From Nanobdellota archaeon (GTDB taxonomy: Archaea > Nanobdellota > Nanobdellia > Pacearchaeales > GW2011-AR1): DNA of 29,727 nucleotides. Numbering within the stretch: the stretch's first letter is position 1; each line of letters begins with the position of its first letter. Under the pieces are notes generated by a model. The model was not told the origin of the DNA. It saw only the letters and a list, made by a program, of their open reading frames with translations, and did not search any database. The stretch spans positions 1 through 29,727 of the forward strand of contig JBBSXX010000138.1 in assembly GCA_038045565.1 (NCBI GenBank). The letters run 5' to 3'. A program made the translations under genes and the position numbers. This document shows, one piece after another, positions 6,492-9,540 of this stretch.

Positions 6492-6902
6492 ATGAAAATC
6501 TATATTGCTGGAAAGATTTGGGAAAAATATGAGCTTGAGCAATTGGAAAAAGTTGACAAACTATGCAAAAAACTTGGATATAAGACTTTCCTTCCACATA
6601 GAGATGTGGGGCTTGCTAAAAGTGTTAAAGATGTGAAAAAGATTTTTGAGGGAGATATTATTAAGGGATTTAAAGATGTAGATTTGGTTGTTGCATTGCT
6701 TGATGGGTTACATGTTGGAGCTGGGACAGCATGGGAATTAGGATATGCTTATTCAAGGGGAATTCCTGCAATTGGACTAAAAACAGACGAACCGATTAAA
6801 GATTCTCTTGAAACTCTTAGTGCAATTCTTATTGGAAGTATGAAAATAGTTTCAAGTTTTGATGAGTTGGATAAAGAACTAATTAAATTTAAGAAAAGTT
6901 AA
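6492..6902 (+). CDS. Nucleoside 2-deoxyribosyltransferase / nucleotide N-glycosidase family (NDT, Rcl/MilB-like)
   Basis: IYIAG, FLPH, IFEGD, D.VVALLDG and GTAWELGYA (catalytic Glu) motifs. Confidence 0.85.
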   Translation: MKIYIAGKIWEKYELEQLEKVDKLCKKLGYKTFLPHRDVGLAKSVKDVKKIFEGDIIKGFKDVDLVVALLDGLHVGAGTAWELGYAYSRGIPAIGLKTDEPIKDSLETLSAILIGSMKIVSSFDELDKELIKFKKS

Positions 6903-6918: not shown

Positions 6919-7824
6919 TTAATCCAACGGCTTTGCTGACTTAACTTCATTTTCACGCCAGCCTGGATCAAAAGTCTTTTTTGTTTTTGCTTCTTTAGCT
7001 GATCTATAATATATGTAAAGTCTAGCAAAATAAAGTTCTATCAGCCAAAAAAACTCCTTTATACTTCTTGGCTGTTTTAAACTGAATAATAACCCTTCTT
7101 TTATTTCATTAGATAAAGATTTTGTTCTAGGCATATCTGGAACTATTTTATTAAGATTTTCGTGAGCCTTAATAGTTCTAACTCTTTGATTTATCCAATC
7201 TGCCCAGTTTGTAGGATATTGAACATAAACTTCTGCTTTGTCTAAATATTTTATTTTATAGTCTTTCTTCCAGACAAAATAAGGTATAACGCAATCTTCT
7301 GGAACATCTTCTAGAGTTTCTTTAACTAAGCCATTTCTTATTGCAAATAAATAACCAGAACATTGTAAAAATTCTCCTTGACTTGAAAGTCTTTTTCTAA
7401 CTTTATCTATTCCACTATAACCTACTCTTGCCCAAAATTCATATTTGGTTCCTTTTTTATTTGTGGCAACAGGTCTTCCAGTTATTGCCCCTATTGATTT
7501 ATCTTTAAATGCCTCTTCAATTTCTTTTAAAGAATTATCTGAAATATATACATCCCCATCTGTAAAAACAAGTATCTCCTCTTTATTTTCAGAGAATAAC
7601 ATTTCAAATAACATATTTAATGCGTAGGGTTTACCTTCTCCAGGATCAAGAATAAAGTCAAATCTTTTATCTTTTATTTTCCTTCTTAAATATGATTCAA
7701 CTTCTGGAAAAGGATCTATAACAAGAACTTTAAATGGTGTTTTTATTTTTTGTTTTAGAATTATATTAACTGCTCTTTCTGTTGCTTTCGGCTCATTATA
7801 TGAGGTAACAATTATGGTCATCAT
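6919..7824 (-). CDS. GT2 family glycosyltransferase
   Basis: IIVTSYNE, GKPYALN, DGD, SGYLFAIR, ED and QRVRT (QxxRW-like) motifs. ATG at 7824 preferred over TTG at 7839. Confidence 0.88.
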   Translation of the reverse strand: MMTIIVTSYNEPKATERAVNIILKQKIKTPFKVLVIDPFPEVESYLRRKIKDKRFDFILDPGEGKPYALNMLFEMLFSENKEEILVFTDGDVYISDNSLKEIEEAFKDKSIGAITGRPVATNKKGTKYEFWARVGYSGIDKVRKRLSSQGEFLQCSGYLFAIRNGLVKETLEDVPEDCVIPYFVWKKDYKIKYLDKAEVYVQYPTNWADWINQRVRTIKAHENLNKIVPDMPRTKSLSNEIKEGLLFSLKQPRSIKEFFWLIELYFARLYIYYRSAKEAKTKKTFDPGWRENEVKSAKPLD

Positions 7825-7869
7825 TATAAAAACTCCCAATTGGTTATGAATCCGGAAACCATTTTCATT

Positions 7870-8061
7870 TTAATTAACCTCAAAGGGATATTCAGACGGT
7901 CTTATTATAGCCATTTTTTCAGATTGATGGGAAAGCTCTAAACGGCATTTTTTGCTTCCTTGTTTTCCTATATCTGAAATTTCTATATTTTCAACTACCC
8001 ATATTTTATCAAGGATTTTTACTTTATCTCCTTTCTTTATATCCTTTGCTTGTTTTTTCAT
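7870..8061 (-). CDS. aIF5A/EF-P N-terminal-domain-only protein (63 aa)
   Basis: AKDIKKGDKVKI..KIWVVENIEISDIGKQGSKKCRL...IIRP...FEV aligns by eye with the aIF5A N-domain (LKxGxYxxIDG.PC.I.....SKxGKHGxAKAR...P....EV). It stops where the OB-fold would begin. Confidence 0.7.
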   Translation of the reverse strand: MKKQAKDIKKGDKVKILDKIWVVENIEISDIGKQGSKKCRLELSHQSEKMAIIRPSEYPFEVN

Positions 8062-8079
8062 ATAGTTAGAGAATAAGGC

Positions 8080-8094
8080 AAACTTATAAAGTTT
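8080..8094. promoter_or_regulatory. Near-palindromic TATA element centred between divergent mini-aIF5A and queC
   Basis: AAACTTATAAAGTTT (reverse complement AAACTTTATAAGTTT) sits at the midpoint of the 50-nt gap 8062..8111. Confidence 0.5.
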
Positions 8095-8111
8095 ATTCTA
8101 TTGAAATTTTT

Positions 8112-8849
8112 ATGGCTGCTAATAAAAATGCGATTATCTTATGTTCTGGAGGATTAGATAGTGTTGTAACTGCCAATTATATTAAAGGTAAGCTAAAATA
8201 TTGTAAAATAATAATTTTGTTTTTTAATTATGGTCAAAAATCTCTTGTAAATGAAAGATTTTATTCTAAGAAATGTGCTAAAAAATTAAAGGCTAAATTT
8301 ATGGAACTTAACCTTCCTGAATTAAAGAAACTCTCTCCCTCATTAATAAATGTCTCTGGAAATGTAAGAAAACTAAGCCTTAAAGATTTAAAGGATACTA
8401 AAAAAGAATCTGACAATTGGTATGTGCCATCTAGAAATACAATATTTTTAGTTTATGCGCTAGCTATTGCTGAATCACTTTTTATAAAAAGTAAATGTAG
8501 AGAAAAATATGATATATTTGTTGGTTTTAAGAATGATGGAAAGGAAAGTTTTCCGGATGCGACAAAGGAGTTTGTTAATGAAATGAACAAACTAGAAAGA
8601 GTATCTGTTAAGAAAGGGATTAAGATAATTGCTCCTTTGATAGGGATGGATAAGGAAGATATAGTTAATTTAGGGGTAAAATTAAATGTTAATTTCAAGG
8701 ATACATTTAGTTGTTATATTTCTAATAAGCTTGGTAAACAATGTGGGTATTGTTTAGCTTGCAGATTAAGGCAAGAGGGATTTTATTGGGCTGGTATAAA
8801 GGATCCTTCAGAGTATACTATAAAAATGAAGGATTTTCGAGCAAGATAA
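8112..8849 (+). CDS. queC: 7-cyano-7-deazaguanine (preQ0) synthase
   Basis: SGGLDS PP-loop, FNYGQ, YVPSRNTIFL, FPDAT, and Zn ligands SCY...CGYCLAC..R. Confidence 0.9.
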   Translation: MAANKNAIILCSGGLDSVVTANYIKGKLKYCKIIILFFNYGQKSLVNERFYSKKCAKKLKAKFMELNLPELKKLSPSLINVSGNVRKLSLKDLKDTKKESDNWYVPSRNTIFLVYALAIAESLFIKSKCREKYDIFVGFKNDGKESFPDATKEFVNEMNKLERVSVKKGIKIIAPLIGMDKEDIVNLGVKLNVNFKDTFSCYISNKLGKQCGYCLACRLRQEGFYWAGIKDPSEYTIKMKDFRAR

Positions 8850-8880: not shown

Positions 8881-9540
8881 ATGGAACAACCAAAATTTGA
8901 GCCGACTGAAAATCAGTATAAACCTGTTGTGGCATTTTTAAGAAAATATACAAAAAAGGCGAAGCTACTTGAGATCGGTGCAGGAGATAGGACACTTAAG
9001 AAGTTTCTTCCTGGAAATATAGCTTATGAGAGTTTAGATTTTGATCCAAATTATGGGAAGGCTTTTTTCAAAGCTAAACATGATTATCATTTTGATTTAG
9101 ATAAAGGTAAACTTCCTGTTAAAACAAACAGTTACGATATAATCGTTTGTTTAGAAACTCTTGAACATACAATGTATCCTCAAAGAGTAATAGATGAAAT
9201 GAAAAGAGTGGCTAAGGCTGATGCTTTATTCTTTATTTCAATACCTAATGATTATAACATACTTCTTAGATTGTATTATTTATTTGGGAAAAAACACAAG
9301 ATGGATGAAGCTTTTATGGTTGTTGAAAAACATCTCCATATACATAAAGTAAGGGCAAAAGATATTGTTGAATTATATGGGAAAAATTTTAATGTAAAGA
9401 AAACATACTATATCTGGCAGTCAAGAAACAGCATGTATTCAAAAACTGTTTATTTTATTGATAGAATGATAAATCTTTTTTCTAATCTATTGCCTGGATT
9501 ATTTGGGAGAATGGTATTGATGATTGGAACAAAGAAGTGA
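8881..9540 (+). CDS. Class I SAM-dependent methyltransferase
   Basis: LLEIGAG motif I, LP...SYDIIVCLETLEH, and ISIPN. Confidence 0.85.
   Translation: MEQPKFEPTENQYKPVVAFLRKYTKKAKLLEIGAGDRTLKKFLPGNIAYESLDFDPNYGKAFFKAKHDYHFDLDKGKLPVKTNSYDIIVCLETLEHTMYPQRVIDEMKRVAKADALFFISIPNDYNILLRLYYLFGKKHKMDEAFMVVEKHLHIHKVRAKDIVELYGKNFNVKKTYYIWQSRNSMYSKTVYFIDRMINLFSNLLPGLFGRMVLMIGTKK

What the first reader, a model, noticed from the sequence alone, without database searches (positions are those of the whole stretch)
7870..8061. Half-size aIF5A: hypusine-loop domain only, with GKQG instead of GKHG
Seen: a 63-aa ORF with clean start and stop that matches the aIF5A N-terminal SH3-like domain along its whole length. 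The modifiable Lys is kept but the following His is Gln, and no OB-fold ORF follows (45 nt to the next gene). Known: a/eIF5A is a two-domain factor hypusinated at the GKHG Lys, and split genes occur in Nanoarchaeum. Inference: a split IF5A, a minimal P-site factor, a decoy for deoxyhypusine synthase, or a substrate for a different Lys modification. It shares a symmetric promoter with queC.
Basis: partly seen in the sequence, partly recalled or inferred. Interest (0 to 1): 0.7.

Follow-up and report, generated by a model that had tools for sequence, protein, structure and literature searches.

The report
Mini-IF5A lysine-loop protein in QueC module
This 63-residue gene is a real, conserved extra copy of only the lysine-loop half of translation factor aIF5A; in tiny DPANN archaea it is always inherited with a remodelled QueC-type ligase, a glycosyltransferase and a nucleoside-transferase-like enzyme, which suggests its loop lysine receives an undescribed modification rather than the protein serving as a minimal translation factor.

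Summary
It has no OB domain, and its stop codon is identical in independent assemblies.

It is not the cell's IF5A. A canonical full-length aIF5A (GKHG) and DHS lie elsewhere in the genome, and no separate OB half exists.

The short form is an old family of 60-72 aa with a single origin. GKQG is only a lineage variant; relatives have GKHG, AKHG, GKMG or expanded Lys/Gly loops. The loop lysine is the constant.

The new result is context. In 35 of 201 genomes of the order, and in 10 more from other families, the gene sits in one fixed module: QueC-family ligase | mini-IF5A-GT2 | NDT-like. The NDT-like gene and the module-type GT2 occur in exactly those 35 genomes, and 35 of 39 QueC matches lie in the module. 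The module QueC has lost the canonical His and Cys. Most carriers lack QueD (34/35) and half lack arcTGT (17/35). A controlled complex model (0.71 vs 0.00) places the lysine loop at the QueC pocket mouth.

Best reading (~0.45): the loop lysine is the acceptor for a QueC-type acylation, later elaborated by the GT2 and NDT-like enzymes. Earlier agents of this scan reported the same module on other genomes.

The parts
7870..8061 (-). Mini-IF5A: 63-aa stand-alone paralogue of aIF5A domain I (SH3-like barrel with the lysine loop)
   Evidence: ORF. 38% identity, E 3e-10, to the genome's own aIF5A. Model pLDDT 89. Foldseek top ~50 matches are all a/eIF5A or EF-P domain I. Conserved family of 60-72 aa.
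7942..7977 (-). Loop segment S29-R40 (S-D-I-G-K-Q-G-S-K-K-C-R). K33 (codon 7963-7965) is the counterpart of the hypusinated lysine
   Evidence: S29, K33, G35, K38 and R40 are invariant even among divergent short forms. Residues 29-36, 38 and 40 form the predicted interface with QueC.
8062..8111 (.). 50-nt divergent spacer with a central near-palindromic TATA-like box (8080-8094). Probable shared bidirectional promoter, with both start codons about 21-23 nt from the box
   Evidence: Spacer length (mostly 50-52 nt) and the central TTATAAAG core are conserved in 19 loci, including lineages about 40% identical at protein level. Promoter function is inferred.
8112..8849 (+). QueC-family PP-loop ATPase/ligase, remodelled subtype
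   Evidence: PF06508 E 1.8e-46. TIGR00364 scores 130.4, below its cut-off of 150.3. It keeps SGGxDS, VPxRN, D149 and the Zn cysteines. It has YxQ(x)5E without the His, and FPDA in place of YPDC. It is adjacent to mini-IF5A in 35/35 and 10/10 genomes.
6919..7839 (-). Module-specific GT2 (GT-A) glycosyltransferase, co-transcribed downstream of mini-IF5A. The likely start is the ATG near 7824
   Evidence: PF13641 E 3.7e-14. Profile scores of 450-580 bits occur only in module genomes; all others score <=372. Model pLDDT 87. Closest folds are hyaluronan, cellulose and chitin synthase catalytic domains.
6492..6902 (+). Nucleoside 2-deoxyribosyltransferase-like protein, convergent with the GT2
   Evidence: PF05014 E 1.1e-14. 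PDB NDT 7m5h E 3e-10. Found in exactly the 35 module genomes out of 201.

Best explanation
The ORF encodes a stand-alone copy of aIF5A domain I (mini-IF5A). It arose once from aIF5A and now works outside the canonical hypusine/translation role, as the small protein partner of a four-gene module: QueC-family ligase | mini-IF5A-GT2 | NDT-like. Proposed mechanism: the two divergent transcripts fire from one shared TATA box. Mini-IF5A docks its protruding lysine loop at the mouth of the QueC-family enzyme's substrate pocket. The enzyme adenylates a carboxylate, most likely imported 7-carboxy-7-deazaguanine or a close analogue. The epsilon-amine of K33 then attacks in place of ammonia, giving an N-epsilon-acyl (deazaguanine-type) lysine. 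This parallels Cap9 and QatC acting on protein N-termini, and EpmA acting on EF-P Lys34. The GT2 and NDT-like enzymes then elaborate the adduct, or use the protein as a carrier, with sugar or (deoxy)ribosyl groups. Shown here: homology and fold, single origin, module co-inheritance, QueC remodelling, and decoupling from the preQ0/archaeosine pathway. Supported only by a model: the loop-QueC docking. Inferred: the covalent chemistry, the identity of the acyl group, the roles of GT2 and NDT-like, and the cellular purpose.
For: Fold and homology.
Extra copy: a canonical aIF5A and DHS are present elsewhere in the genome.
Single origin: a tree separates the 25 short forms from 16 canonical N-domains with 100/100 support.
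The lysine is the constant feature: K33 is invariant while residue 34 varies (H, Q, M, F) and the loop can expand with more Lys/Gly.
Co-inheritance in 201 genomes of the order: 35 genomes carry the short form. All 35 have QueC 60-100 nt away, and only 4 other genomes have any QueC match. The module-type GT2 (>=450 bits) and the NDT-like gene occur in exactly those 35.
Deep conservation: the same gene order is found in 10 of 10 loci from other taxonomic families at 36-48% identity.
Shared central TATA box.
The module QueC is a distinct subtype. All 25 lack the His of YxQxHxxE, with Cap9-like YxQ(x)5E spacing as described in PMC13329287, and all lack the Cys of YPDC. They keep the P-loop, VPxRN, the Zn site and the nucleobase-recognising Asp (PMC13279940). 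The one canonical-motif QueC in the order sits in a queD-queE-queC-folE operon without mini-IF5A.
Not an ordinary preQ0 pathway: this genome lacks QueD, QueE and FolE. QueD is found in only 1 of 35 module genomes. arcTGT is missing from 17 of 35.
Precursor import is plausible: a YhhQ/Vut_1 transporter scores 160 bits.
Complex model QueC + mini-IF5A: ipSAE 0.71, 0.71 and 0.74 against a best control of 0.00. The runs agree on >=93% of contacts and partner pLDDT is 91. This mark was reached by 58 of 80 solved complexes and 2 of 110 mismatched pairs; the counts hold only roughly because my own alignments were used. The interface is mini-IF5A 29-36, 38, 40, 51, 53 against QueC 141-146 (next to the pocket motif), 180-182, 219-228 and 91-100. 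No similar IF5A-QueC complex is solved, so a pass from memory is unlikely.
Precedent for QueC-family enzymes acylating a partner protein's amine: 10.1101/2025.04.06.647259 and PMC13279940.
Against: No modification has been observed, and there are no proteomic or RNA data for this locus. The complex model supports binding but does not show it. Its confident contacts do not include the P-loop or D149, so insertion of K33 into the active site is not demonstrated. Known QueC-family protein substrates use a flexible N-terminal glycine amine, not a structured loop lysine. The module always lies in surface-glycan islands, so a small-molecule or glycan pathway with a non-substrate protein partner is equally compatible with the synteny. 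The YhhQ transporter and the NDT-like enzyme also fit plain 7-deazapurine salvage. Many family members keep GKHG, so DHS could still act on them. Related genomes are not independent, so the co-occurrence counts overstate statistical strength. No co-variation was seen between loop residue 34 and the predicted QueC interface.
Confidence: 0.45

Rival explanations
1. Non-substrate partner. Mini-IF5A binds the QueC-family enzyme as a regulatory, gating or substrate-delivery subunit of a small-molecule pathway, for example salvage of scavenged 7-deazapurine nucleosides (NDT-like frees or exchanges the base, QueC converts it, GT2 makes a deazapurine glycoside or a surface glycan). Its lysine is never covalently modified.
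For: The same module co-inheritance and predicted binding fit this equally well. The NDT-like family handles free bases and nucleosides. A YhhQ-type transporter is present. A size-matched nucleoside-glycosylating GT2 (AvpGT) is among the GT2's structural matches. QueC-family cluster 4 is also linked to PF05014 proteins (PMC13329287). The module lies in glycan islands (notes).
Against: This reading gives no reason for an absolutely invariant, solvent-exposed loop lysine on a scaffold whose whole family (IF5A, EF-P) exists to present a modified residue. Loop expansions add more Lys/Gly. Loss of the canonical His and Cys in the QueC argues against ordinary CDG-to-preQ0 chemistry.
Confidence: 0.25
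2. DHS-linked or ribosome-linked role. Mini-IF5A is a substrate or competitive decoy of deoxyhypusine synthase, or a minimal E/P-site factor. Its linkage to QueC and GT2 would be regulatory or coincidental.
For: DHS recognises only the N-domain beta-sheet and loop of eIF5A and does not contact the C-domain (PMC10042821). The genome has DHS. Many family members keep an exact GKHG with the flanking S...K.R pattern. The fold superposes on eIF5A in DHS and ribosome complexes.
Against: The gene is accessory: 35 of 201 genomes, always beside a canonical aIF5A. It is inherited strictly with three enzymes unrelated to hypusination. Residue 34 and the loop length vary freely (H, Q, M, F, insertions), which a DHS tunnel evolved for GKHG would probably not tolerate (inference). 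Ribosome binding by IF5A uses both domains (PMC10042821 discussion).
Confidence: 0.12
3. The GT2 is the modifying enzyme. Mini-IF5A is glycosylated on its loop, as EF-P Arg32 is rhamnosylated by EarP, and QueC only supplies or regulates something else.
For: Mini-IF5A and the GT2 are co-transcribed and often translationally coupled, with overlaps of up to 14 nt. The GT2 orthologue is strictly module-specific. EF-P domain I bound to EarP is among the structural matches.
Against: The GT2 is a GT-A enzyme most like processive membrane-associated synthases, not a known protein glycosyltransferase. Lysine N-glycosylation has little precedent (my own knowledge). The only complex tested placed the loop on QueC. 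The GT2 pairing was not tested because only one complex job was allowed.
Confidence: 0.1
4. Artefact or decay: a truncated pseudogene, a recent nonsense mutation, a sequencing error, or half of a split IF5A gene.
For: Only the bare fact that the ORF stops where the OB domain would begin.
Against: The sequence is identical in independent assemblies. More than 100 homologues have the same length, down to 36% identity. The family has a single origin with 100/100 support. A full-length canonical aIF5A lies elsewhere and no second OB half exists. The downstream DNA is a conserved GT2 gene.
Confidence: 0.01

Closest known systems
Archaeal/eukaryotic translation factor a/eIF5A, domain I with the hypusine loop (TIGR00037, NF003076, PF21485; e.g. 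PDB 1bkb, 1iz6, 3er0)
   Same: The same SH3-like barrel (TM 0.8-0.9). The same position of a lysine at the tip of a protruding basic loop, with the S..GK.G..K.R pattern. 38% identity to the host's own aIF5A N-domain.
   Different: No OB domain. HMM scores are far below the family cut-offs. It is an accessory gene, not a universal one. The residue after the Lys varies and the loop can be expanded. It is linked to QueC, GT2 and NDT-like genes rather than to translation genes.
QueC-family protein-conjugation systems: Cap9 with CD-NTase (type IV CBASS deazaguanylation) and QatC with QatB
   Same: A QueC-fold ATP-dependent enzyme is encoded next to a small dedicated partner protein. The catalytic core is retained with altered substrate-pocket motifs, including the Cap9-like YxQ(x)5E. 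A specific enzyme-partner complex is predicted.
   Different: Those systems are bacterial defence systems that modify a flexible N-terminal glycine. Here the candidate acceptor is an internal loop lysine on an IF5A fold, in archaea, with GT2 and NDT-like partners and no CD-NTase, Cap10, QatA or QatD. PADLOC models match only the QueC.
EF-P modification systems: EpmA/EpmB beta-lysylation of Lys34 and EarP rhamnosylation of Arg32
   Same: A dedicated enzyme encoded nearby modifies the loop-tip residue of the same fold. EpmA also works through an adenylate and forms an amide on the lysine epsilon-amine.
   Different: EF-P is a full three-domain ribosomal factor. EpmA is a class II aaRS paralogue and EarP is a GT-B enzyme. 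Neither is related to QueC or to GT2.
Canonical QueC (7-cyano-7-deazaguanine synthase; PDB 3bl5, 2pg3; PF06508 cluster 1)
   Same: The partner enzyme shares the fold, P-loop, VPxRN motif, Zn site and nucleobase-binding Asp.
   Different: It scores below the equivalog cut-off and lacks the His of YxQxHxxE and the Cys of YPDC. It is not linked to queD, queE or folE. Most carrier genomes lack QueD and half lack arcTGT.

Membership tests
a/eIF5A (TIGR00037 / NF003076 equivalogs) | Whole-protein HMM score above the curated cut-off | tested here: not met
   NF003076 scores 19.4 against a cut-off of 138. TIGR00037 scores 15 against 75.45. The canonical copy in the same genome passes at 146.9 and 116.8.
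a/eIF5A (TIGR00037 / NF003076 equivalogs) | Two-domain architecture: N-terminal SH3-like domain plus C-terminal OB fold | tested here: not met
   The protein is 63 aa and ends after the barrel. The next gene is a GT2. No longer or fused relatives were found (weak evidence).
a/eIF5A (TIGR00037 / NF003076 equivalogs) | Hypusination of the loop lysine by DHS, and binding to the ribosomal E/P site | not testable with these tools
   DHS is present in the genome.
IF5A/EF-P domain I superfamily (PF21485 IF5A-like_N, PF08207 EFP_N) | Domain I fold with a protruding loop between two long strands | tested here: met
   Model pLDDT 89.3. The Foldseek top ~50 matches are all a/eIF5A or EF-P domain I, TM 0.8-0.9.
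IF5A/EF-P domain I superfamily (PF21485 IF5A-like_N, PF08207 EFP_N) | Pfam gathering threshold | tested here: not met
   EFP_N scores 19.7 against 23. IF5A-like_N scores 13.7 against 27.1. Homology is shown instead by BLASTP at E 3e-10 to the genome's own aIF5A.
IF5A/EF-P domain I superfamily (PF21485 IF5A-like_N, PF08207 EFP_N) | Conserved modifiable residue (Lys or Arg) at the loop tip | tested here: met
   K33 is invariant in alignments A1 and A4 and in all 25 module loci.
QueC-family protein-conjugation systems (Cap9/CD-NTase, QatBC) | A QueC-family enzyme encoded with a dedicated partner protein, forming a specific complex | tested here: met
   Adjacent in 35/35 and 10/10 genomes. The complex model scores 0.71 against a best control of 0.00; this is a prediction only.
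QueC-family protein-conjugation systems (Cap9/CD-NTase, QatBC) | [quoted passage not shown] | tested here: not met
   The N-terminus is M-K-K and is part of strand 1. The predicted interface is the internal loop 29-40.
QueC-family protein-conjugation systems (Cap9/CD-NTase, QatBC) | Operon with defence components (CD-NTase and Cap10, or QatA and QatD) | tested here: not met
   The neighbours are GT2, NDT-like, a methyltransferase and other GTs. PADLOC matches only the QueC.
QueC-family protein-conjugation systems (Cap9/CD-NTase, QatBC) | A covalent 7-deazaguanine adduct on the partner protein | not testable with these tools
   This needs mass spectrometry of the expressed proteins.
Canonical QueC (TIGR00364), for the partner enzyme | Equivalog score, catalytic signature YxQxHxxE and YPDC, and linkage to queD/queE | tested here: not met
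   130.4 against a cut-off of 150.3. His and Cys are absent in all 25 module QueCs. QueD is found in 1 of 35 module genomes.

The most novel reading that the evidence does not exclude
The hypusine-loop scaffold has been re-used in DPANN archaea as the acceptor of a nucleobase-type lysine modification. A QueC-family ligase would attach a 7-deazaguanine carboxylate to K33. The NDT-like and GT2 enzymes would then add (deoxy)ribosyl and sugar groups, giving a protein-borne nucleoside or glycoconjugate. That would be a new class of post-translational modification, possibly used at the ribosome, at the cell surface, or in host or virus interactions.
Probability: 0.25. Interest if true: 0.9.

Novelty: new variant of a known kind. 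Interest (0 to 1): 0.74.

Why it matters
IF5A and EF-P are the textbook case of a protein fold that exists to present one elaborately modified residue, and every modification known so far serves translation. A domain-I-only paralogue is different: it is inherited strictly with a remodelled QueC-family ligase, a glycosyltransferase and a nucleoside-transferase-like enzyme. If the model holds, it would extend QueC-type protein conjugation, found in 2025-26 in bacterial antiphage systems, in three ways: to archaea, to lysine side chains, and to the hypusine-loop scaffold. The idea is directly testable, because four small soluble proteins can be co-expressed in E. coli and read out by intact-mass spectrometry. 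It also assigns a candidate function to the otherwise puzzling orphan QueC genes of DPANN genomes that have no preQ0 pathway and often no arcTGT.

Tried and rejected
I obtained genomic context through the genome search and the fetch from genomes instead.
- No RNA holder was listed for the locus, so nothing can be said about expression.
- A PF01287 (OB domain) scan of the genome found nothing. It also missed the canonical aIF5A's own C-domain, so it is uninformative. I replaced it with a protein search using that C-domain.
- The search for longer or fused relatives found none. This is weak evidence.
- phmmer of the 63-aa protein against PDB sequences gave spurious leucine-rich and PPR repeat matches above IF5A, and I disregarded them. 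The fold search settled the question.
- PDB sequence relatives of the GT2 were negligible.
- PADLOC gave no match for mini-IF5A, GT2 or NDT-like.
- I looked for co-variation between loop residue 34 and the predicted QueC interface residues and found no clear pattern.
- Literature searches found no paper describing this protein or module: IF5A with QueC, aIF5A with DPANN, hypusine with DPANN taxa. The QueC-family survey PMC13329287 does not mention it.
- Readings rejected: sequencing error, nonsense mutation, pseudogene, split gene.
- Not run because of caps: complex predictions of mini-IF5A with GT2, with DHS, and with the NDT-like protein.
- Unpublished genomes G436, G437, G507, G515 and G568 were among the 401 scanned. 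They contribute only canonical-aIF5A rows to that tally, and no claim here rests on them.

Full report
**1. The observation**

window:7870-8061 on the minus strand is an ATG-to-stop ORF of 63 aa. Profile matches are weak and below the curated cut-offs, but they agree with each other: EFP_N E 8.6e-4, IF5A-like_N E 0.057, NCBIfam IF-5A E 6e-4.

Homology is established by three stronger tests:
- BLASTP against the canonical aIF5A of the same genome gives 38% identity over 60 residues, E 3e-10. The loop and the C-terminal R-P...F-E-V stretch align.
- An AlphaFold model built on 77 homologues has mean pLDDT 89.3 and is a small all-beta barrel with a loop at residues 31-36.
- Its top ~50 PDB matches are all a/eIF5A or EF-P domain I (TM 0.8-0.9, rmsd 1.2-2 A). 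They include EF-P domain I bound to EarP and eIF5A bound to DHS.

The stop codon is real. Contigs from other samples, and from a separate study, cover the gene with zero differences and no indels.

**2. It is an extra copy, not the cell's IF5A**

The genome is 854 kb in 153 contigs and about 89% complete.
- It encodes a 129-aa aIF5A with GKHG on another contig. This copy passes both IF-5A equivalog cut-offs over its full length.
- It encodes a clear DHS (PF01916, E 2e-119).
- The OB half of the canonical protein has no second copy in the genome.

The split-gene and sole-minimal-factor readings therefore fail.

**3. A conserved family with one origin**
- A word-seeded search found 76 clusters of 62-70 aa, named Pacearchaeota or Nanoarchaeota where any name is given.
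- An exhaustive profile search found about 45 representative clusters at 50% identity, nearly all 51-84 aa.
- The protein atlas lists the family only as hypothetical proteins of Nanobdellota.
- A tree separates 25 short forms from 16 canonical N-domains by one branch with 100/100 support, present in 100% of bootstrap trees. Caveats: 70 columns and an unrooted tree.

Correction to the finding: GKQG looked invariant in the first alignment, but that search seeds on exact 5-residue words. Among loci found by profile search, 8 of the 12 closest have GKQG and 4 have GKHG. Distant ones have GKHG, AKHG, GKMG, GKFG or expanded Lys/Gly-rich loops. The invariant positions are S29, K33, G35, K38 and R40. 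The lysine defines the family, not the Gln.

**4. The module**

Counts below are from 201 genomes sampled from the order.

| Gene | Genomes with it | Relation to the short form |
|---|---|---|
| Short IF5A | 35 | Strong profile matches (67-123 bits) in 32, plus divergent loop-expanded short forms in G149, G180 and G004. Nearly all genomes also have the canonical gene as a weaker match in a 125-190-aa frame |
| QueC (PF06508) | 39 | 35 of these lie 60-100 nt from the short gene, head to head |
| Module-type GT2 | 35 | The top 35 matches (450-580 bits) are exactly the same genomes, directly downstream. All other GT2 relatives score <=372 bits, even within the same genera |
| NDT-like | 35 | Exactly the same 35 genomes, and none of the other 166 |

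A phylum-level scan found ten more short forms in other taxonomic families. All ten have QueC head to head. The GT2 is downstream in all ten (adjacent in nine, about 1.1 kb away in L025). The NDT-like gene lies beyond it in at least five. Protein identity to the window's genes is only 36-51%.

The short gene and the GT2 abut or overlap by up to 14 nt. The spacer to QueC is mostly 50-52 nt and has a central near-palindromic TATA-like box conserved in 19 loci.

Related genomes are not independent, so these counts are descriptive. However, the module is patchy within genera and its gene order survives deep divergence, which background synteny would not explain.

**5. The QueC partner is not an ordinary QueC**

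It scores 130.4 against the QueC equivalog cut-off of 150.3. I aligned it to B. subtilis QueC and compared 25 module QueCs:
- Kept: the P-loop, VPxRN, the Zn cysteines and Asp149.
- Changed in all 25: YxQxHxxE becomes YxQ(x)5E with no His. PMC13329287 reports this spacing for the protein-modifying Cap9.
- Changed in all 25: the Cys of YPDC is lost. In distant lineages the Tyr-Pro is also replaced.
- PMC13279940 states that the Tyr and Asp of this motif recognise the nucleobase. The invariant Asp therefore suggests the substrate is still deazaguanine-like.

By contrast, the one canonical-motif QueC in the order (G050) lies in a queD-queE-x-queC-folE operon with no short IF5A.

Pathway context argues the same way:
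- This genome has no QueD, QueE or FolE.
- QueD occurs in only 1 of the 35 module genomes.
- arcTGT is missing from 17 of the 35, including well-assembled genomes, while 33 genomes have TGT without QueC.
- A YhhQ/Vut_1 transporter is present, so import of a precursor is plausible.

**6. The docking test**

- ipSAE was 0.71, 0.71 and 0.74, against a best control of 0.00.
- The runs agree on at least 93% of contacts, and partner pLDDT is 91.
- This mark was reached by 58 of 80 solved complexes and 2 of 110 mismatched pairs. The counts hold only roughly because my own alignments were used.
- The interface on the short protein is residues 29-36, 38, 40, 51 and 53, which is the invariant loop.
- On QueC it is 141-146 (immediately before the pocket motif), 180-182 (including the invariant K181), 219-228 at the Zn-site helix, and the 91-100 insertion.

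No similar complex is solved, so a pass from memory is unlikely. The model supports binding but does not show it, and it does not show K33 reaching the adenylate site.

**7. The other enzymes**
- GT2: the model has pLDDT 87. It is a GT-A domain with C-terminal interface-type helices. Its closest folds are hyaluronan, cellulose and chitin synthase catalytic domains and an archaeal mannosyltransferase, and a nucleoside-glycosylating GT2 is also among the matches.
- NDT-like: a clear nucleoside 2-deoxyribosyltransferase-family member.
- PADLOC recognises only the QueC, so this is not a catalogued defence system.

**8. Interpretation**

Best reading (0.45): mini-IF5A is the dedicated protein acceptor or carrier of the module. 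The QueC-family ligase adenylates an imported 7-deazaguanine-type carboxylate, and K33 attacks in place of ammonia. This parallels Cap9 and QatC acting on N-termini (10.1101/2025.04.06.647259; PMC13279940) and EpmA acting on EF-P. The GT2 and NDT-like enzymes then elaborate the product.

Rivals:
- Non-substrate regulatory or delivery subunit in a 7-deazapurine salvage or glycoside pathway (0.25).
- DHS substrate or decoy, or ribosome mini-factor (0.12). This is plausible because DHS contacts only the N-domain (PMC10042821), but it does not explain the module.
- GT2 as the modifying enzyme (0.10).
- Artefact or split gene (0.01).

**9. Novelty**

I found no paper describing this protein or module, and the 2026 QueC-family survey does not mention it. 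Earlier agents of this scan reported the same module on other genomes. Their notes agree with my independent results but are not independent evidence.

- The exact 35/35 profile for the NDT-like gene and the GT2.
- The decoupling from QueD and TGT.
- The QueC motif analysis against a canonical operon in the same order.
- The correction that GKQG is not invariant.
- The single-origin tree.
- The verification of the stop codon in independent assemblies.
- The controlled docking result.

Noticed in passing
P0083 (84 aa): An odd chimera. Its first ~43 residues match the N-terminus of the module GT2 (…ITSY.EP…DPFPEVE) and the rest is the C-terminal two-thirds of mini-IF5A, starting at the loop. It could be a rearrangement between the two adjacent genes or an assembly artefact.
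   Followed up: no
L048 (G050:C105:1-6500): The only canonical-motif QueC in the sampled order lies in a complete queD-queE-(209-aa unknown)-queC-folE operon. The FolE carries an extra ~115-aa N-terminal region, and the 209-aa ORF has no Pfam match.
   Followed up: partly
L050, L051, L052 (G004, G180, G149): The loop-expanded mini-IF5As (SSGKGIKQGK… and SVGIGKGGKGKQKAKK…) form one well-supported clade, although their genomes belong to two different taxonomic families (f1 and f5). This hints at lateral movement of the whole module.
   Followed up: partly
window 7947-7984 and 8023-8041: When metagenome contigs were laid on the gene, depth rose 5- to 8-fold over the loop-coding segment and near the 5' end. 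Many short contigs from other organisms matched there at under 90% identity. Several related mini-IF5A genes therefore co-occur in the same groundwater samples.
   Followed up: no
G000:C153 (L001): Pfam PF01287 (eIF-5a OB domain) fails to detect the C-terminal domain of this genome's own canonical aIF5A at E<=1, although NCBIfam equivalogs match it end to end. PF01287 is not a reliable absence test in these lineages.
   Followed up: yes
G170:C1:624922-625980, G157:C2:31064-32239, G163:C2, G019:C1: Several arcTGT matches in related genomes contain a single in-frame stop (TGA, TAA or TAG) or are split in two pieces. They may be decaying TGT genes in lineages that keep the QueC module.
   Followed up: no
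L006:819-1394 (G168) and L031:1180-1500 (G336): In two genomes the normally ~50-nt QueC|mini-IF5A spacer is interrupted, by a 191-aa ORF in G168 and by ~320 nt in G336. The shared-promoter arrangement is therefore not universal.
   Followed up: no
window 8881-9540 and the equivalent positions in L009, L010, L012, L013, L014: The gene just beyond QueC varies between genomes: a class I methyltransferase here, a radical-SAM enzyme or a GT4 glycosyltransferase elsewhere. These may be variable tailoring enzymes attached to the conserved four-gene core.
   Followed up: partly
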